From positions 101,060,001 through 101,124,000 of the forward strand of contig OZ024741.1 in the NCBI GenBank assembly GCA_964016885.1: a stretch of 64,000 nt of DNA. Direction: 5' to 3'. This DNA comes from Eledone cirrhosa (Eukaryota). Position numbers and translations under genes: made by a program. Under the pieces are notes generated by a model. The model was not told the origin of the DNA. It ran no database searches and worked only from the letters and a program-made list of their open reading frames with translations. Positions 2,283 to 62,301 of the stretch are shown piece by piece. Numbering within the stretch: the first letter of the stretch is position 1; each line of letters begins with the position of its first letter.

Positions 2283-3485
2283 CACATACATACATATACA
2301 TATATACATACATCTACACATATACGTACACTCATAACCACACAATACTCGTCAACAACCACACATCTCTGCCAATACATATTTCCATATGTATCTTCAC
2401 ATATATTTTTTTCATTTAAATATTTTTCAATATAAACTTGACAATATAAATGTAGATAGATGAATGTATACACACAAATCCGATATTTAAATGCATATAC
2501 CAGCAAATACAGTTATATAAACCCAGATGCATAAAAGTCTGTGTTCATACATATAAAGATATCAAATGGGGCCATAAATCCTATTGAGAAAATCCATAGG
2601 AAAGATGATGTGGACAATTAATAACTATTTGTTCCGATAGTTTAAGAGTTTATGTGCCAACATCGTGACAAAATACACCTCAGAAATACATAAAAGGCAA
2701 GATTTTTCTGTTTCCGTCATAAGCTTTTGCGGAACCTAATACAGAGCATTGAAGTCAATGGTTGTTTTGTTTTGTTTTTGTTTTTTTGTTGTTGACATTT
2801 TGAGAGAAGCAATACACTGAGCCAAGGAAGTAGATTTGCTAAGGTTCTCATTTTTAAAAGAACGTAGATGGCAATAGGTTGTAGCGTCTATATAAAAATT
2901 ATGTGCATTTTTATATTTAGATTTTTCTTAAGGCACTCTACAATTACATTCATAGTTAGGGTTAGAAAACCCAATTGAGGAAGAACAAGGCCTATTGTTA
3001 ACAGTTTTGTGGTTATGGTTTTTCAGATGGCGATCTAATTAGTTGTTGTCGTTTAAGCTACTATTACTATGCTAGTTACCTAAGACAATGTTAATAGTGT
3101 TGTTAGAAGTATAAGGTTTAGAAAGTTTATGGTGTTCGCTGAAAGCAATATAGTTAGCCAAACAGGGTGTTGTTGAGAAGGATAACGTAAAATATGATTT
3201 ATATATATATATATACAAGGAAAAAACATTGTTGTCTCTGATCGAGACGAAGCGCGAGTGTAATTTTTGAATTCATATAAAAATGAGAAAACTCATCGCT
3301 AGAACAGCTATTAAAACAGCCATATACTGTCAATGACAGCGATGGGTAAAAGTTCCACAGAGGACAGAAACCAACGGTCAGTGGCTGGTCAGCATAGAGA
3401 CAATCCAAGAGGTGGGCGACAGGCAGACGAAACATAGAAGATTGGAAGAGGATGAGGTCAAGGAGAAGTGCACTAGAGCACAGAA

Positions 3486-3630
3486 GCGATATACAAGACA
3501 AGTTCACACACATCTTCACCTTCATTAGCTCTCAAATCAGCAAAATGGTTTTGCCCGATTTGAAGCCATGGTTTGAGAGCTGATGAAGGTGAAGATGTGT
3601 GTGTGTGTGTCAACTTGTCTTGGACATCGC
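3486..3630. repeat. Imperfect inverted repeat, about 53-bp arms and 30-nt loop
   Basis: 3486-3538 is the near reverse complement of 3570-3630. The right arm contains CTGATGA. Confidence 0.8.
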
Positions 3631-4924
3631 CTTACCTTATTTCCCTCTTCTTCGCCGCTTTTGTCGAACATTCAACATTCAGAATATAAACAATACATAG
3701 AAATATAGAAAAGCTTTAACCTTATATGGGAGACATGTCAGTTGAAACTGCAAATAAAAATACACAGTTTACAAAAGTCATTGATGTTATTTCAGCGAAC
3801 TCCGCCCTACCCCTCTCACTCAATAAGACAATAAGCTTTCAGTTGTGAAACACCATCACGATGTTTAGCGTGCACACCTAATAGTTATATAGTGAGTACA
3901 ATGGCAGTGTTTTGGTAAAGATACATCATCTACCTAACTCCTGGACGGATTCCATTTCTATGCAATATTCTGCCCATCAACAGTTATTAAGACTGCAGTG
4001 TGCAGAAATTGCGCTTTAACAACAGATATTTGGCAATCAGGCTATTACATTTCCTCAGCAGATGATGCCCAATTCGACACATAGGTTCGTAAATCTAGCA
4101 GTCCTGCACTATCATGACCTATAAAATAGAGGAAGAACATTGTATTCTTTGCTTTGTTGTTTCCGTTTAACCTCGGCAGTATTTGACCATAAAGGGACAT
4201 AACTCTATGCTGGAAAGCATGGCGTCAAACCCTCTACCAATACTGCCAATAATATACAAGAATACTGAATGCACGGAATATTGAATTTTGTTCAGCACGG
4301 AAATATTTCTATGGATCGAAATAGCGAACTGGTTTATTGGGAATTGACGAAGTGTATCATGAAAAAGTGTGTGTGGGGGGAGGGGGGGTGCATTAAGGGA
4401 AAAGTAATAATATCAACATCAGTGTCAGAGAACAGTAGAGAAGAGCAGAGGGTGGTGGTGGAGTGGCGAAGTCAATAGGTTTAAAGAGACTCACAGAAAA
4501 TATATCGCAAACAACGTGCTCGCGGTGAAATTGGATTTCGAATATCCCTTCGATGCGAAACACGAAGAATATAGTGTTCGTGCTAAAGTACGTGCCATTT
4601 GATTGGCCTGAGTAGCAGGGGCACTGATGGATCATAGGGGCACGTGTTATCCGATTATAAGTAGCTGTTGGCAGTTTTTCAGCAGCATATTACTGCATTG
4701 TTCACGAGGAGCATCAGACAGGAAACGGCGGACTTTGTCCTTCGCCTTGATAGTCTGTTGTGAAGAATCAGAGTGCAGCGACAAACTGATTTCAGCAGTG
4801 CGATGGGAAAATTGATGGGAGGGGATTCTCTGTCCTATAGAGTTTATTGTAACTTGCCATATTTATTCGATACTGTCTTGACAGCTGTTTATTGCAAATA
4901 GCAGCTAACTGGGAGTTTTCCCAA

Positions 4925-5230
4925 ATGCATAAGCTGAAGTGTGATGCCGTTGTACATAATAAAAATCTTCATGGCCATATCTCTGCTGAACACAGAGTTG
5001 AAGATTTTGGCAAAGGTGGGCTTGAGACTCGGTACTTGGACCAAGGCTCTGGCTAAGATGCTCGGGGTCCAATTCAGACCAGATCTTCATGTAGATAAAA
5101 CCTGGGAAGAGACTGTAAGCAGTGTGACAGAACCAGTCTCACTTAGAAATAGGTTTTTAGGAAACTGTCCATAAAAGATCAGGGTGGAAATGGCTGCTGT
5201 TTATCTAACTTTGGTGATGACCTTGTCACG
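4925..5230 (+). mobile_element. Internally deleted Tx1-like LINE fragment
   Basis: LLNTELKILAKV, GLRLGTW and MLGVQFRPDLHVDKTWEE match separate parts of the ORF2 at 15701-19102. Confidence 0.7.
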
Positions 5231-6587
5231 GAAAAAACCTAAAAATTTGTTTGTTTTTTTCATGATTCCTTATCAATTTCCCTTTGTTTGTTTCTAAGTA
5301 ATTTTTTAATGCTGCTATTGTTATCTTGTAGTAGTTTTCTATTCGTATCAAATCCCACACTCCTTGTGTTAATATAGGTATATTCTTTCTATATCAGATT
5401 TAGAATACTGGCTTTGGAATGATGTCAGTAGTTCGCTGGATTATTCTAAGTTCTTCAAATCCCCTAATTTCCAGGTTTTTTTTCGGGGGGGGGGGGGGGG
5501 GGGGGTTGTAGAATAACAGAATAAATCTAATCTATTAGAAATGATTTCGACAAATTAAAAAAAGTATCAGTAAACATACAGCAAATGAAAATAGCATTGG
5601 AAAAGACTATAAATGCCATAAATGAGAGGAAAACGAGGGAGAGAGCAAGGACTATTAGTCAAAGGAAGAAAGAAAGGGGGATGGTTAGGGTGGTTTTTCG
5701 GCTGTGCCCCGGCATAGGCATTTCCACAGCGACACCCGCTGAAACAGCCACCCCACCTCGCGGGGCTGCTTCAGACAGGCTGCTGTCCTTCCGATTTTAC
5801 GAAGGAGGTCAGCTGTACGGGGTCCGAGAACGCCTGAGGTCTCAACGGCGACCGGAGCAAATGCTGAAGCTGTAATTTACAACAGAGATGGCTAGTTTAA
5901 TTATACATACTATATTATTCCTAGCATTGACTATAAATATACTTTTGACTTGTGTGTAGTATTACTTCCTATTTTTTTTTTTTTCATTTGTCTGCAATGT
6001 ATTTTATCAGTTTCGTTTACTAAGTATTTGTTCTGGTCTAATTCCCTGAATTCCGAATATATGTCTAATCTATTATTCTCCGCTTTAGTTGATTTACCTT
6101 TTCTTATAGTAGTTTTGTTTATTTATTTCTATACATACTTTTAACAGTTAAGAGTGTGTTATTGTTAGTAGCGCCACGAGTGACCAGTTCTGTAGAAAGA
6201 TGTGGTAAGAACATCGACAACGACTTTGTCTTGTTTTACATTATCTATTAACAAGGTTAAGCTATGTAGAGCTGAGTAGAGCAGGCATGCCAAGAGTTAT
6301 AAAACAAACGAATTAAGGATTTCAGAAGGCACGGTCCACTGGCTGAAGTGTTTCCAAGCCGTGGTTAAGTTGTTGTGTTACATATTGGCTAGTGATTTCA
6401 CGACGAAAGAAAGTTAGTTGTTTACCTTTTCACAGTCAGGATCCGAGAGACAGATTTCTCAAATCAAAGCGGGAATTTTTCCCTCAGGGCGCGTAGAGAT
6501 ACATTCTTCTACTGGCGCTGATTGGCTGAGCTGAGCCAAATCACGCACAGAGAATGTATGTGAGCCCGCGGAATGTAGGTCACTACA

Positions 6588-29589: not shown

Positions 29590-31125
<1,536 letters not shown>

Positions 31126-31599: not shown

Positions 31600-31784
31600 C
31601 AATATAAACAGTTTTTATAGATAAATAGATTTGACATACCGTAACAACATCGACTTGTATTTGAAAAGTTGAATTGGCAGTTCAACTTTTCAAATACAAG
31701 TTGATTGCCAATTCAACTTTTCAAATACAAGTCGATGTTGTTACGGTATGTCAAATCTATTTATCTATAAAACTGTTTATATTG

Positions 31785-37465: not shown

Positions 37466-39357
37466 CTACATTTTAAATTTAAATTTATATTTAAACGTTG
37501 AGTTTAATCTATGTTTGCAACAACTGAATAAATTTGTCCGTAGATTAAGGGAATTTTTAGATTTTAGTATAAAGAATATCTCATCTGCGCAGAGGTCACA
37601 TGTCTCAGAGGATGAATTAAAAGGAATCCCTTTTGAGACTATATTCCAAGCCGTCGAATATCTAACGTTATCTAGCTTAAGTTGCCATAGTACGCCTGAT
37701 AGTGCCGTTGAAGATTTTTTACTTGGATCTGTGAAAGAATTCTTGTGGTTATTATAGCGAAGTTTAAATTCCGTCGATGTGGAACCGACGTAGTTAAAAG
37801 AATTAGAGTCAGTATTAACATTACAATTGTATACTATATTTTTAACTAAGCAGTTGTTATTTAACGGACATTTAGATCTATCTCTACAGTTACATTTGTT
37901 AACTTGTATATTATTTATGCTGTTATCACTAGGTTTTAAGTTCCTATTATTTATTCTATTGATATTTTGTGCTAAATTTTTGGTGGATGAGTAGGTTAAT
38001 TTAATTGTATGTCTATTGAAAATTGAGTGATATCTATGTGTTCTAGGGAAGCGATTATCAAGAGCTTTAAAAAATAGTTTAGCGATGTGGGTTTTAATGT
38101 TTAGTGAGAAGGGGGGGGGGGGGCAAACCAAATTATGTTCCTAGTTCTATTTCTTTTTTGGCCTTTGGAATTATTGTAATGCTTTCTATTATAGTTGTTA
38201 AGGATGTTGCCGTAATTAAAAAAGTTGTTACTTTGTTTAGTTTGTCTATCATTATCTATGTACACAATCTTATCAGCATATCCTGCTCTAGCTAATGCTT
38301 CATTGTAGTATTGGGCTTTTTCGTCGAAAATCTTTCTATTCGACGAGATCCTAGAGATACGTTTTTGGACAGAGTTTACTATAGTGTTTTTGACAGATCT
38401 GGGGTGGTTAGAGTTAAAGTTTACATAGTTTAAGTTTTCATTCAACTTGTGAAAAGGATAGTGAAGACATGTGTTGAGATTTAATGTTATATCTAGGAAA
38501 TTGACTATTCTATGGTTGTTTTCAATTTCTATTTTAAGATTAAAATAATTAAAAAATTGTGTAATTTGTTTACATTTTCTATTTAGTTCAGAGTTATTAT
38601 TATCAATAAGTAAAAGCATGTCGTCTCTATATAAACCTCCGGTAGTACCGGGTATTTTCCTATGTAGCGAATTGATTAAAAATAAACCCACAAGGTCAGT
38701 TACCTGGGCTGAGTCGGATGATCCCATAGTAATGTCAAAATTGCTATCTCTATCTGCTCTGGTCCATAGTTGGTCATTAAATTCTATCAAAGTTTTCCTA
38801 GCCGATAATATAATATGCATTTCATTGCTAGTTAGGTCAGTATGTTTGAATGCGTAATTTAGTGCCTTATTTAGTAGATTAGGGGTAATAGAAGAATAAT
38901 AGTTAGCTATATCAAGTTGAATAAACTTATTATTATTGTTATATTTAATTTGCTTAAACCACTCAACGACCTCTCCAGTTCCCTTCCACAAGCTCAGGTT
39001 AGATAAACAATCCAAGTTCTTAATTTGCTGTATCACCCTGTCAAGAATGTTTTTGCTTAATTTGCCCAGGTCCGATTTTGATGGTGCGATCAATCTAACT
39101 GGCAGGTCATTTTCAAAATTCCGCTTGTTATCTTTCATATTGATCTTCGGTTTCCTGGGCACGAAAGGTTGTGTTCTGTTCTCAATTTCCAACTCGTGCA
39201 TTATACAAGATGCTTCGACATTCATTTTCTCAAGCTCGGCCTTATCTGCTACCTTGTACTTTTTCCTCATCTCTTTCAGTATGAGGCCATTATACATGTC
39301 TTTCTGCACTCCATAGAGGTTGTTGGTCTTGTCTTTTAATTGATATGTATTCTCCAT
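37466..39357 (-). CDS. PLE reverse transcriptase plus GIY-YIG endonuclease, frameshift in the G-run at 38111-38123
   Basis: QLDIANYYSSI, FDITMGSSDSAQ, GLYRDD, FLDITLNL, SNHP; then CNCRDRSKCPL..C..NIVY...YVGST...RYNNH...CDLC..E...CKH. Confidence 0.9.
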
Positions 39358-39526
39358 CCCTTACGTAGACAATATGTTTTTCACTCTGGTGGTATTCTAT
39401 CCCCTATAATTGAACACATACCTTTTTGTGTATTTTTCTCTATATACTGTCTTATAAAGAGCCCGGTTTCTACTCCTTGAGCTCATTAAATTGCAGGGGA
39501 TTAACGCGAGTCTTTAACTCTGTTTT

Positions 39527-40500: not shown

Positions 40501-41863
40501 GGCATCGGATATGACCGATGTACCTTCGATCGTTTTCCCACTCACTCAATGATTTAATTAAGTCAGTATCATTAAGATACCAACCCAAAGGAAAGCAGAG
40601 TGGACAGTAATACGTTAAATAGTGAGAAAAACGATTTCGTGTGGGTTGAGAACTTGATTCTCTGGCCCCGAACATTAGTTTCTGCTACTCCATCTGGTGG
40701 CGACAGTCCATATGGAACTGGTGTGCATAGCAATTAGGTAAAAATATAAGGAAAATAAATTGAAAATGTAACTGGAGTCTTTTAAGAATATTTATTTACT
40801 ATACAGGTTTAACAGTTCTTATGGTTTTATACGAAACAAAGTTCTTTCTGTTTTATACGAAAAGAGTGGCTCAGATTGCTATTTCTTTAGAGTATGACAG
40901 TGACAACCTCCCCCCCCCCCCCAGGAATCCTGACGACGGCGAGAGATGGATAATATCCGGGAAAAAGGGATCTCAAGAAACATGAAAGTCGCCGCGACAT
41001 TTGAGAATTTAAACGTATTTTAAGGGAAGTAACTCTGAGTGATCATGGTGGTGTTGGCTGCGGCAGTCGCACTGTTGTCGTTCCACCGCTACTATGACTA
41101 CCAACGTGAATTTCTTAACCCAAGAAAACGTTTCAAAACAGAGATAACGAATTGAAGTTCCAGTCAAATCTTGTCGAGATGGAACAGAATCCCCATATGG
41201 TTAAATGCACAAGTCTACGATATCCAAGTGGCTAAAAGTTTCCAGCAGAAAAGCAGGCAGGAGTCATAACCTGAATGGGGCTCGGCTCCCTTAGAGTGTA
41301 AGAAGTTAAAGGCCAAAACCCTTGTATGAGGTGGGGCTTCTTCTCTGAAGACTTGCTGTCCAACACTCTCGAGGATTTCTTAATATCCTATGTATTAAAA
41401 AAAAAACCAAAGAGTTTTCCTTTCACTATGTTCTGTGATGCTGCTTATTTTCCAATCTTCCAGATCTTAGCACATGGACCTTACCTCGGATTTATTTGAT
41501 CTGCAGGATAATAATAACACATGGAGCTTCCCATCATCTTGTTTAGTCGAAACTAAGTTGGATATCTCCATTTATACATGACACCAATAGTATGAAGTTG
41601 TATAACTACTATCGATTAGTTAACATACCGATACATTTTTTGTTTTTGTGTGTGTCCGTGTCCGTGAGTGTACGTGTGTTTTTTATTTGTGCGATAAGAT
41701 ATATTTTAATAAAATTTAACATGTTAGGCGAAATGTAGTGTGGTGTTTGGTCCGTCTCTGCATTCTGTGTTGAAATTTCGCTACTGCCTTCTTGTGTGGT
41801 AGACTTAATCCGTCGCCTGGATGAATACTACCTGGCCCTTGAATGCTTTTAGCAGAATCTTAC

Positions 41864-43134: not shown

Positions 43135-43410
43135 AAAGAAAAGGGCGGGACGGAGGAGGAAAACTCTTACTTTGGTCTGACGGTATATCTCAGCTGCACC
43201 ATGCGGACAAGATGGCGAAAAGGTTACCGCGGAGAATAGCCAGCGATACTCGTTACATCAGCCATTCCACCCTGTGAAGTTCCTTGTTCAAGCGTGATAC
43301 CCTCGTCCCATTTTGACAGAGGAAAATGACAATCTGGGGACCGAGGACCCCAGAGGTTCTAACGGTGATTGGAACAAAAAGGAAACGGTTAGTCAATACC
43401 TAGTATGTAG
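43135..43410 (+). promoter_or_regulatory. Candidate promoter and first (non-coding) exon, possibly of SPATA7
   Basis: Locally CpG-rich unique sequence, GGGCGG at about 43143, YY1-like AAGATGGCG at about 43209, and donor-like GTTAGT and GTATGT at about 43387 and 43403. Confidence 0.35.
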
Positions 43411-46230: not shown

Positions 46231-48020
46231 ATATATATATATACATTAAAAACAACAACAGAAGGTCAGACTGGAAACTATAATTTTAATTCCATGTAAA
46301 CAGTATACATGTTTCAATGGCCCTGCTTCATCATCTGAATATGATGCAAGACCCAGATGATTTTATCAGGTGTAAATAACAGAATTAGTTATATAAGAGA
46401 ACAAGATTTTGGTGAATACAAACAGTGAATAGAAAATGTATATATATATGTGTATGTAGGAAGGGCTTCTTCCATTTCCATCTACAAAATTCTACTCATG
46501 AGGCATTAGTTACTTACCCAAAATGTCACACAGCAGGACTGAATCTAGAAACACATGGTTGCGAAGAGAACTCTCTTTTTCTTTTCTTGAGTAAAATTAG
46601 ACAAATTATTCAACGTATAATGTACTATTTTTTCAAACCAGTTACCAATTAGATTAAAGTGATTCTCGGACACTTTCTAGATGTGTTCATGAAAAAAAAA
46701 CCCCAGGACAAAATCCCCACCACTACGATATGTGTGTGTGTATATATATATATATGTGTGTGTGTGTATAAACAAGAGTAATAAGTTGAGAGATCAAACT
46801 TGGTTGAAATATGCCAAGAAGATTTGAAACTATGTTTCTACAATCCGCAAATAGAGCAACCTGATTCATCCAAGATGTAATCCATTGGGTAAATTAATCC
46901 AGAACGAGTGTAAGGTTACAGAGCTTAAATGATAAGTAATAAAACCAAGGGTTCAGAAGAAATTTACGTTTTTATTTGTAGAGGGTCAGATGCCATGCTT
47001 TGCAGCATAGTGTTACATCCCTTTATGGTCTGAGTTCAAATCCCGCTGAGGTTAACTTTGCCTTTCATCTTTACGGGGTCGATAAAATAAAGTACCAGTA
47101 ATACACTGGGATAATTGCTGGCCTTGTGCCAAAAGTAGAAACAATTATATGCATTTCTACAAATGAAATAAAAAGTAGGATTAGTTAAAAATTCTCATTT
47201 AGGTAAGATTCCTGTATATGAAAGTAAATCCATATACTTATCAGGCTTGAAACAAAATGTTGTAAATTCTGTCTAGGAGAAGCTCACTCTGATATAAAAC
47301 CTGTGACTTCGTTTGCATCATATGTAGACCAGTTCTACTTTTTGGGCAAATGCATTCGATGTTCAGAGAGTGGGATTGGCCCCGTGTAAAGCCTTTCCTC
47401 ACTTAAAAAAGCTTCAAGCACAGGCATCACTTGATTTGTGACATTTTTTGCATTGCATGACATGGCTACCCATAGGCAAGTCTCTAGCAGGAATAAAAAG
47501 CCAAGTCCGTGATGCTCATGCTTAAGTATCAAGTGATGGCATTACTTGAAATTGAGTTGCAGCCATCATATCATCATATATATATATAGAGAGAGAGGGG
47601 GAGAAAAAGAGGTTATGCCAGTGACATGAGAAATGTACCCAGTTTATCCTGTAGGGTACTCATGCTGGTGACACACAAAAAGCACTCAGTCCAACCTATA
47701 AGAGGGTTGTCGTGCTGTGACACGACAAAAAGCACCTAATCCACACTGTAACATGGTTGGTATTAGGAAGGACATGTAGCCATAGAAACCAAACCAAAAT
47801 ACAATCTGTATGAGGAAGACGTGTCTCCTGACCTGAATTATCTTATAATGTGAAAACCTGTCTAACCCATGCAAGCACGGAAAATGGACGTTAAAAGATG
47901 ATGACATATATATATGTATGTGTGTGTATGTATGTATGTCTTTCCAATATAAAGCATGAAACTAATAAGACTTTTTGTACCTGTTTGTTGTCTCCTTGAA
48001 CTATATATATATATATATAT

Positions 48021-48276
48021 AGAAAAAGAGATGAAATCGAAAATGCAACTGGAGTCTTATTTTTTTAAAAAATATATATATTTATTTGGTTCCTTTACCG
48101 GTTTCGCAGTTCTTCTGCTTTTCAAAAGGTGAGTTGAGAAAAACCACAGACCCTCCATCTCAACTCACCTTTTGAAAAGCAGAAGAACTGCGAAACCGGT
48201 AAAGGAACCAAATAAATATATATAGTTTTTAAAAAAATAAGACTCCAGTTGCATTTTCGATTTCATCTCTTTTTCT
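48021..48276. repeat. Palindrome with 119-bp arms and an 18-nt spacer, plus a one-sided tail (48277-48341), in (TA)n
   Basis: 48021-48139 versus 48158-48276, one mismatch seen. Confidence 0.93.
48168..48205 (+). ncRNA. Minimal type I hammerhead with U3-A8 core variant (mirror at 48092-48129, minus strand)
   Basis: CCTT-TTGAAAA-GCAG-AAGAA-CTGC-GAAA-CCGG-TA-AAGG. Confidence 0.7.
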
Positions 48277-48336
48277 TTATACTTTCACTCGTGTAGGACA
48301 CCTCGGTTATTTTTCATTTTGTAAAAAAAACCTCAC

Positions 48337-48378
<42 letters not shown>

Positions 48379-48960: not shown

Positions 48961-49026
48961 AAGCAATAAATTATAATATTCCAACAATGACTGGTACAAA
49001 GAGAAGCACCCTGTTACAAAGTAACT
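48961..49026 (+). CDS. SPATA7: SPATA7 homologue, candidate exon (in-frame ATG at 48987)
   Basis: Acceptor GAACAG and donor GTGAGT. MTGTKRSTLLQSN; the phase joins the next exon. Confidence 0.55.
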
Positions 49027-61414: not shown

Positions 61415-62301
61415 GAAGCTTTCAAAAATGATGAAGATGACGATGATGATGAACTCTACCAGATTGTTGAAGCTACTCTAGGAAAAAAGCCTGACCAAAT
61501 TTCTATGACAGATTATCCTTCTGATGATAGCTGTTATGGGTTCAGCCAAAGTGCTAGGCTGTCCAACTACTATGATAAAAACTCTTCTAATGTCCCATCA
61601 TCTTCCTGTCAGTCTCGTGCCTTCAGTTCTACCAGCAGATCGACAAAAGCCTCCAAGAAATCAAACATTTTTCCCATGAAAGACCAACCAGGGGATGTCC
61701 TCCAAAGTAGGACTCATGTATTTACTCAACCTGAAAAAGAGTTCACACCTAGGATCTTAAAAACCAGTAAACAGTCCCTGTTGAGTCAATGTAAGTACTA
61801 TAACCCACCAAAACATCGTAAGGAAAAAGCAAAACCTGGATCTAATAACAGCAAGAAGGAAACTTCAAATGTATCTGAAAATTATCCTGAACCAGAATCA
61901 ATGACAGAAATGTCCTATAACTCTTCGCAGTTGTCTAAAACCTCTTCTACCTTAGTTGAAGAACCTGTACCCAAGTTAGACCTTTCATCAGGCAAAGAAG
62001 AGAGAAGGGCTAAAGTTAAACCTAAGAAAGCTACACAAAGTGAGTTTAATGTTAAAAAGAAAACATCAGTTACTCCAGATGTCGGCATCTCTAAGGAGAA
62101 TAATATGTCAGAAGAAGAAAACATTGATATAAAGAAGAACATGCTGAGAAAATATAGATCTTCACTGAATTCCACAGATAGTACCTTCAAACAACCATCA
62201 ATGCAACATTTTTCATCTAAATCACTTTCTGATATATACCAGTCTAATGAAACAAACAGCCATCTTGAAAATCAAAAAGTATATAATGAAATTAACCAAA
62301 G
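61415..62301 (+). CDS. SPATA7: SPATA7 homologue, large exon
   Basis: TTTACAG acceptor in frame with ORF 61505. GDVLQSRTHVFTQPEKEFTPRILKTSKQSLLSQCKYYNPP resembles SPATA7 GDLLDKHSELF...FTPRTLKTEAKSFLSQYRYYTP (recalled). Donor AG|GTGATT. Confidence 0.85.

What the first reader, a model, noticed from the sequence alone, without database searches (positions are those of the whole stretch)
48021..48341. Palindromic unit whose hammerhead has a compensatory U3-A8 core
Seen: both arms read CCTT-UUGAAAA-GCAG(aagaa)CUGC-GAAA-CCGG-UA-AAGG, with stems I and II intact and a palindromic stem III. Known: C3-G8 is a tertiary Watson-Crick pair in active hammerheads, and U3-A8 is a rare tolerated swap. Inference: the double change in both arms was inherited from the template and points to selection for cleavage. 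Searches requiring CUGANGA would miss this family. It lies about 0.6 kb upstream of the first recognised SPATA7 exon, possibly in an intron. A diverged relative of the arm lies at about 40750-40820.
Basis: partly seen in the sequence, partly recalled or inferred. Interest (0 to 1): 0.75.

Follow-up and report, generated by a model that had tools for sequence, protein, structure and literature searches.

The report
Penelope retrotransposon stub with U3-A8 hammerhead
This palindrome is a short fold-back fragment of a very abundant Penelope-type jumping gene; it carries a hammerhead RNA motif with an already-published U-A swap in its core, kept across a whole group of related elements, that likely cuts weakly in the parent RNA but is predicted to be inert in this copy.

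Summary
The motif is real, but the two arms lie on opposite strands: they are one inverted duplication, not two witnesses. The unit is a 5'-truncated fold-back insertion of a Neptune/Nematis-type Penelope-like retroelement (96% identical to the 3' end of a copy with a 775-aa RT plus GIY-YIG frame; about 20,000 core matches in this genome). U3-A8 hammerheads are published (Schistosoma Cercyon elements; Perreault 2011), and this scan met them before in at least 7 other genomes. Within the family, changes at 3 and 8 are independent decay (0 C3-G8 among 100 position-3 variants). Better support for selection comes from sister families at 44-58% protein identity: all keep U3-A8 while position 7 varies and stem II is rewritten with intact pairing. 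Against strong cleavage: 70 of 96 tandem copies read through the site, one abundant sister carries A13C in 13 of 14 copies, and 5' ends pile up 57-76 bases upstream of the cut (67 of 113 arms; likely the RNA start), not clearly at it. In this copy a 119-bp hairpin is predicted to bury the motif. No RNA data were available. Known kind; modest interest.

The parts
48021..48139 (-). Inverted, 5'-truncated arm of the element end, stopping at the inner ('short') terminus
   Evidence: 118 of 119 bases match 48158-48276; 92.7% to the 3' region of parent copy L073
48092..48129 (-). Hammerhead motif of the left arm (sense on the minus strand)
   Evidence: descriptor scan
48140..48340 (+). Long arm of the element end (pseudo-LTR): begins 62 bases before the predicted cut, inside the zone where most copies begin, and runs to the outer ('long') terminus about 30 bases before the element's start codon in tandem copies
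   Evidence: 95.8% over 213 columns to L073 3' region, E 2e-96; start zone; junction copies
48168..48205 (+). Minimal type I hammerhead motif, U3 (48172) and A8 (48177), predicted cut between 48201 and 48202
   Evidence: cleavage untested
48277..48340 (+). 'Tail' present on one arm only (about 65 bases)
   Evidence: long+short arm pairs in 18 of 30 loci (loci overlap in pairs); loose TA ends behind 48281 in 3 runs
48002..48020 (.). (TA)n flank, left
48343..48375 (.). (TA)n flank, right
40738..40828 (-). Older, decayed relative of the arm; hammerhead core lost
   Evidence: 68.5% identity, E 8e-7; sequence
48961..49026 (+). Putative exon of the host SPATA7-like gene (context only)
   Evidence: splice-like ends by eye; no Pfam match; HSD3 exon at 61580-62080 on the same strand

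Best explanation
The unit is a 5'-truncated, fold-back insertion of a Penelope-like retroelement into a (TA)n repeat, likely made by reverse transcription of the element's uncut 5' RNA leader from two fixed start sites, and the U3-A8 hammerhead it carries is a clade-wide motif that likely cuts only weakly, as a dimer, in the parent RNA and is predicted to be buried in a long hairpin in this copy. Shown: identity with the end of an RT plus GIY-YIG element, the two fixed outer ends, the pile-up of inner ends 57-76 bases before the predicted cut, and retention of U3-A8 in sister families. Inferred: that the pile-up marks the RNA start, that the two outer ends are reverse-transcription starts (by analogy with PMC11167929), that pairing of the palindromic stem III between two motif copies (upstream and downstream pseudo-LTR, about 4.7 kb apart, or two RNAs) gives the active fold, and that cleavage occurs at all.
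For: Parent: L073 holds an open 775-aa frame with RVT_1 (E 1.3e-6, just under the cut-off) and GIY-YIG (E 7e-6, over it), a DKG motif and a Cx4CxxC linker, with the motif 1.1 kb after the stop and an inverted truncated copy at its 5' side; window arm 95.8% identical. 19,756 core matches at up to 2 mismatches, control 0; 11,672 exact; 606 copies reach the ORF end. 99 of 100 junction copies examined run on into the ORF start. Sister families at 44-58% protein identity (B, C, D, E) keep U3-A8 with position 7 = C, A, A, U and different, still paired stem II; family F (156 hits) is U3-A8 with C7 in the large majority of the 100 rows listed, linked to an upstream ORF. Genome-wide descriptor counts: C3-G8 41,114, U3-A8 22,305, U3-G8 902, C3-A8 847; controls 69, 411, 126, 131. 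67 of 113 arms begin at -76 to -57, 0.037 per base against about 0.002 elsewhere. Probability of stems I and II in the whole insertion 0.0, hairpin -198.5 kcal/mol. U3-A8 ribozymes are natural and active in vitro according to PMC3088659.
Against: No cleavage was measured and no RNA run was available. Stem I is 4 bp here, 3 bp in the older subfamily, and forms with probability about 0.05 in the parent context. 70 of 96 tandem copies read through the site, 55 of 70 with an intact core, and core changes are not enriched (11 of 765 against 97 of 3952 in flanks, p 0.09). Family C has A13C in 13 of 14 copies. The genome-wide 2x2 table rests on a few amplified families, not on independent events. Families were sampled with one RT motif, so close C3-G8 sisters with another motif could be missed; the quick tree did not resolve a root.
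Confidence: 0.78

Rival explanations
1. The motif is kept as a folded signal in the RNA leader (protein binding, template choice or translation control) and no longer needs to cut; U3-A8 is a tolerated, weakened state.
For: Most copies were made from uncut RNA; family C carries A13C in 13 of 14 copies and is still abundant; stem I is poor in families B and H; in the anole element hammerhead mutants did not impair insertion in vitro (PMC11167929).
Against: The positions kept across families are the catalytic ones (3, 4-6, 8, 9, 12-14, 15.1-16.1), position 7 is free and position 17 is A or C in families A, C, D and E; starts at the predicted cut are the highest of six positions sampled (105 raw).
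Confidence: 0.3
2. U3-A8 is two ordinary AT-ward mutations that hitch-hiked with a successful lineage, with no selection on the pair.
For: C>T and G>A are the commonest decay changes seen in the discordant lists; the U3-A8 families appear to form one related group, so the swap may be a single event.
Against: Both bases stayed fixed while proteins diverged to 44-58% identity, position 7 took A, U and C, and stem II was rewritten; no large discordant family was seen in the 200 rows listed; a further, unplaced element in L190 also has U3-A8 with G7.
Confidence: 0.1
3. This copy acts on the host SPATA7-like transcript, as an intronic ribozyme or an edited hairpin.
For: It lies 620 bases before a putative exon, on the gene's strand; the hairpin is long and near-perfect.
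Against: It is a young copy among about 20,000; the hairpin removes the hammerhead fold; the single arm difference is not an A-to-G change.
Confidence: 0.04
4. The unit is a MITE-like DNA fold-back element or a retrozyme monomer.
For: Palindromic, non-coding, high copy; hammerhead tandem arrays are abundant in this genome.
Against: Spacers vary from tens of bases to kilobases, inner ends vary, outer ends are unequal, and long copies run into an RT plus GIY-YIG frame.
Confidence: 0.02

Closest known systems
U3-A8 minimal hammerheads of Cercyon Penelope-like elements, Schistosoma mansoni (Cervera and De la Pena 2014, PMC4209133; parts 1-2 of 4 read)
   Same: Type I minimal motif in the pseudo-LTR, U3-A8 in place of C3-G8, short helix I (4-5 bp), G10.1-C11.1, palindromic helix III region, mostly in truncated copies, pairs on opposite strands about 100-700 bp apart, predicted dimer.
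   Different: About 20,000 matches here against about 1,300; helix II is 4 bp with no extra base after A9 (7-8 bp and an extra base there); here U3-A8 is the state of a whole group of families; host is an octopus-like genome (inferred from repeat content, not from a call).
Neptune/Nematis clades of C-terminal endonuclease Penelope-like elements (Craig et al. 2021, PMC8557442; passages read)
   Same: RT then GIY-YIG, CX2-5CxxC linker, pseudo-LTRs, inverted 5'-truncated copy, one-sided tail, (TA)n targets.
   Different: Tail about 65 bases (30-40 in the paper); 3' region about 1.2 kb with a decayed duplicate of the ORF end; not placed on a reference tree, so Neptune versus Nematis is open.
Poseidon element PAc of Anolis (Frangieh et al. 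2024, PMC11167929; parts 1-2 of 4 read)
   Same: Two fixed ends downstream of the hammerhead that bound the tail; uncut RNA as the main template.
   Different: In PAc the ORF starts inside the hammerhead and the core is C3-G8; here the start codon is about 170 bases after the predicted cut and both ends lie before it.
Natural U3-A8 hammerheads (Perreault et al. 2011, PMC3088659; passages read)
   Same: Covariation C3-G8 to U3-A8, stated to be active in vitro.
   Different: The paper suggests variant cores are offset by tertiary contacts; none is evident in this minimal motif.

Membership tests
C-terminal EN+ Penelope-like element | RT domain with DKG motif followed by GIY-YIG endonuclease in one frame | tested here: met
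   P0001, 775 aa: RVT_1 E 1.3e-6 (28.7 bits, cut-off 29.6), GIY-YIG E 7e-6 (26.7, cut-off 22.6)
C-terminal EN+ Penelope-like element | Pseudo-LTR both upstream and downstream of the ORF | tested here: met
   147 junction matches; 99 of 100 examined continue into the ORF start; L420 and L212 place two same-strand motifs about 4.7 kb apart by coordinates
C-terminal EN+ Penelope-like element | Inverted 5'-truncated copy and a one-sided tail | tested here: met
   18 of 30 loci long+short, 7 long+other, 2 other+short, 3 single; tail about 65 bases, longer than the 30-40 described
Neptune/Nematis clades | CX2-5CxxC linker before the endonuclease and (TA)n targeting | tested here: met
   Cx4CxxC at residues about 647-655 of P0001; TA repeat after the long end in 49 of 57 cases
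Neptune/Nematis clades | Placement on a tree with reference elements | not tested
   No reference proteins on hand; the tree holds only this genome's families and is a quick tree
Minimal type I hammerhead of PLEs | Canonical C3 and G8 | tested here: not met
   U3 and A8; this is the published Cercyon variant
Minimal type I hammerhead of PLEs | Other core bases, G10.1-C11.1, helices I and II, H17 | tested here: met
Minimal type I hammerhead of PLEs | Palindromic helix III allowing a dimer | tested here: met
   six-base palindrome; active-type dimer fold -21.1 against best cofold -22.5 kcal/mol
Minimal type I hammerhead of PLEs | Extra base between positions 9 and 10.1 | tested here: not met
   absent in family A; present in families E and H with a matching extra base before G12
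Minimal type I hammerhead of PLEs | Self-cleavage after N17 | not testable with these tools
   no assay; genomic proxy inconclusive
Rfam hammerhead families | Covariance-model match | tested here: not met
   no hammerhead family among 37 matches at E<=1 over the window
Non-LTR retrozyme | Non-coding tandem repeats with a hammerhead in each unit | tested here: not met
   no tandem array here; parent encodes RT and endonuclease

The most novel reading that the evidence does not exclude
A whole group of Penelope-like families has run for a long time on a U3-A8 hammerhead placed about 45 bases after the RNA start, and the group records the ribozyme turning from a cutter into a structural leader element: templates are mostly uncut, one successful family fixed A13C, and an old family shows a one-base core insertion with the 3-8 pair still covarying. 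The series would be a natural mutant panel for asking what these hammerheads are for.
Probability: 0.25. Interest if true: 0.55.

Novelty: new member of a known kind. Interest (0 to 1): 0.27.

Why it matters
The function of hammerheads in Penelope-like elements is open (PMC8557442, PMC11167929). This copy adds nothing by itself, but the set of sister families gives natural variants (U3-A8 with different stems, A13C, weak stem I) and a mapped candidate RNA start that make the question testable. It also shows that searches fixed on C3-G8 would miss about a third of the motifs counted by this descriptor in this genome (22,305 of 65,168 matches).

Tried and rejected
1. Covariation among copies: 0 C3-G8 among the 100 of 101 position-3 variants listed (hand count C 51, G 23, A 26); 47 position-8 variants all keep U3 (G 23, C 14, T 10). 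Rejected as a test: dead copies decay independently. 2. 'Only broken motifs are read through': suggested by 3 loci, rejected by 55 intact of 70. 3. A U3-G8 wobble family as intermediate: suggested by 3 loci; family F proved U3-A8, with 1 U3-G8 row among the 100 listed; a small old U3-G8 branch is not excluded. 4. Pile-up of 5' ends at the cut: raw counts and share of true junctions were +1: 105 (18 of 30), +3: 62 (17 of 20), -6: 18 (13 of 18), -14: 30 (13 of 20), about -44: 65 (12 of 20), about +33: 24 (14 of 20). Highest at the cut, but microhomology, CpG loss and pausing at the hairpin are uncontrolled; inconclusive, and under about 0.5% of copies. 5. Expression: no RNA holder listed; contigs of runs guessed to be RNA gave no cover; no evidence either way. 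6. Tree: careful search did not finish, outgroups on long branches. 7. A per-family summary table of the motifs was not computed; the family statements rest. 8. Papers not held: Lunse 2017, Przybilski and Hammann 2007, Nelson and Uhlenbeck 2008; they may describe this variant's activity. Supplements of PMC4209133 and PMC8557442 were not opened and may list cephalopod motifs. Searches for a cephalopod or Neptune U3-A8 report returned only PMC4209133 for the term U3-A8.

Full report
Observation. The motif described is at 48168-48205 on the plus strand and at 48129-48092 on the minus strand. U3 is 48172, A8 is 48177, the predicted cut is between 48201 and 48202; stems I and II have four standard pairs each and stem III is a six-base palindrome. 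The arms 48021-48139 and 48158-48276 differ at one of 119 bases. No shuffle of the window gave a match. Rfam found no hammerhead. Because the arms face apart, they are one inverted duplication and give no independent evidence for the double change.

What it belongs to. A 28-base core has 19,756 matches at up to two mismatches in the 3.0-Gb own genome, control 0, 11,672 of them exact with position 7 free. Many come as opposite-strand pairs with spacers from tens of bases to kilobases. Long copies lead back to an ORF end found 606 times. Locus L073 holds an open frame of 775 residues with reverse transcriptase and GIY-YIG domains, a DKG motif and a Cx4CxxC linker; the motif lies 1.1 kb after its stop, and an inverted truncated copy sits at its 5' side. 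The window's long arm is 95.8% identical to that end. These are the marks of Neptune/Nematis-type Penelope-like elements in Craig et al. 2021 (PMC8557442, passages); the clade was not confirmed on a reference tree.

How the stub likely arose. One arm ends at a long terminus and the other at a short one about 65 bases inside it in 18 of 30 loci (loci overlap in pairs), both usually into (TA)n (loose ends behind 48281 in three runs). Frangieh et al. 2024 (PMC11167929, parts 1-2 read) showed for an anole element that such a tail is bounded by two internal reverse-transcription starts; I infer the same here. In tandem copies the long terminus runs on into the start codon (99 of 100 examined of 147), so this sequence is also the element's 5' leader. 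Among 113 arms from loci picked by the core alone, 67 begin 57-76 bases before the predicted cut, with a sharp edge at 73 and a rate of 0.037 per base against about 0.002 elsewhere (the peak was already visible). The window's long arm begins at 62. The simplest reading is that this is the RNA's 5' end and that the short palindromes are copies of the uncut leader; a strong polymerase stop would look the same. An earlier scan note on another genome (e1-8612152) prompted this reading.

Is U3-A8 selected? Within the family, no: position-3 variants number 101 (100 listed, all A8) and position-8 variants 47, which is independent decay. Across families, probably yes. An RT motif search gave 2,139 hits in several families; I fetched 42 stretches and read their 3' regions. 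Families B (44% protein identity to L073), C (57%), D (58%) and E (53-56%) all carry U3-A8, with position 7 as C, A, A or U and with stem II rewritten but paired; A, C, D and E share the same stem III palindrome. Not every stretch showed a motif: several B, E and F stretches were cut or interrupted before it. Family F (156 hits) is U3-A8 with C7 in most of the 100 rows listed and family H mostly U3-A8; both link to upstream ORFs. A distant element at 27% identity (L290, L026) has C3-G8. One descriptor over the genome gave C3-G8 41,114, U3-A8 22,305, U3-G8 902 and C3-A8 847, with controls of 69, 411, 126 and 131; these counts reflect a few amplified families, and the C3-G8 matches listed are largely tandem arrays. 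The quick tree did not fix a root, so a single origin is likely but not shown.

Does it cut? Untested. For: catalytic positions are the conserved ones; U3-A8 ribozymes are stated to be active in vitro (PMC3088659, passages); an active-type dimer fold is within 1.4 kcal/mol of the best cofold. Against strong cutting: stem I forms with probability about 0.05 in the parent context; 70 of 96 scored tandem copies read through the site, 55 with an intact core, with no excess of core changes (4 of the 100 were dropped as non-ORF, duplicate or N-masked, and 1 of the 96 did not align); family C has A13C in 13 of 14 copies; published minimal motifs cut weakly and, in the anole element, only with protein. 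Starts exactly at the cut are the most frequent of six positions sampled but not clearly beyond microhomology scatter.

This copy. On either strand the insertion folds into a 119-bp hairpin (-198.5 kcal/mol) in which stems I and II have probability 0.0, so it is predicted to be inert. A SPATA7/HSD3 exon lies at 61580-62080 on the plus strand; a putative earlier exon starts at 48961 and a CpG-rich stretch with a donor-like site lies near 43200-43390 (by eye), so the insertion is probably in an early intron. No RNA data bear on this.

Comparison and verdict. Cervera and De la Pena 2014 (PMC4209133, parts 1-2 read) report U3-A8 minimal hammerheads in Schistosoma Cercyon elements, about 1,300 hits, and opposite-strand pairs. 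The scan itself lists 11 such findings in at least 7 genomes. I found no paper on this cephalopod-like group (an Octopus vulgaris repeat paper, PMC13282606, has no occurrence of 'ribozyme'), but three relevant papers were not held and supplements were not opened. The finding is a new member of a known kind. What is worth keeping is the family series and the candidate RNA start. Interest 0.27.

Noticed in passing
L355-L384 and the listing (family H): Some old copies have two bases instead of one between stem I and U4. Hand count of 34 such rows among 100 listed, first base against position 8: U with A 18, C with G 7, U with G 7, C with A 0, other 2. This may be a one-base core insertion with the 3-8 pair still covarying, or CpG decay.
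   Followed up: partly
L182, L183, L184, L208 (family C): An abundant sister family carries A13C in 13 of 14 copies seen, a change expected from general knowledge to impair cleavage.
   Followed up: partly
G000:C1:5738327-5752443 and many others: About 41,000 C3-G8 matches, many in tandem arrays of about 420-500 bases with a short inverted arm: retrozyme-like; earlier scan notes cover these.
   Followed up: no
L073:2305-3021 and 2934-5258; also L057, L112, L140: The N-terminal frame and the RT frame overlap in the same way in several copies, suggesting a conserved frameshift rather than decay.
   Followed up: no
L073:5357-5423: The 3' region holds a decayed duplicate of the ORF end (84% over 69 bases).
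   Followed up: partly
L608, L609: An inverted pair of this family with several A-to-G changes in and after the motif, resembling RNA editing fixed in DNA.
   Followed up: no
window 37500-39360, minus strand: A second, more distant Penelope-like element, broken by frameshifts; 27% to P0001, no Pfam match for the 419-aa frame.
   Followed up: partly
L190 (minus strand) and L206: An unplaced element with U3-A8, G7 and an eight-base palindromic stem III; and another with C3 and U8 in both arms.
   Followed up: no
window 30463-30600, 31640-31745, 3485-3631: Other long inverted repeats that give sub-threshold microRNA matches; probably fold-back stubs of other elements.
   Followed up: no
G000:C1:348863669-348949713 (L095-L101): One damaged copy repeated at about 9.6-kb spacing, a large tandem duplication that inflates variant counts.
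   Followed up: no
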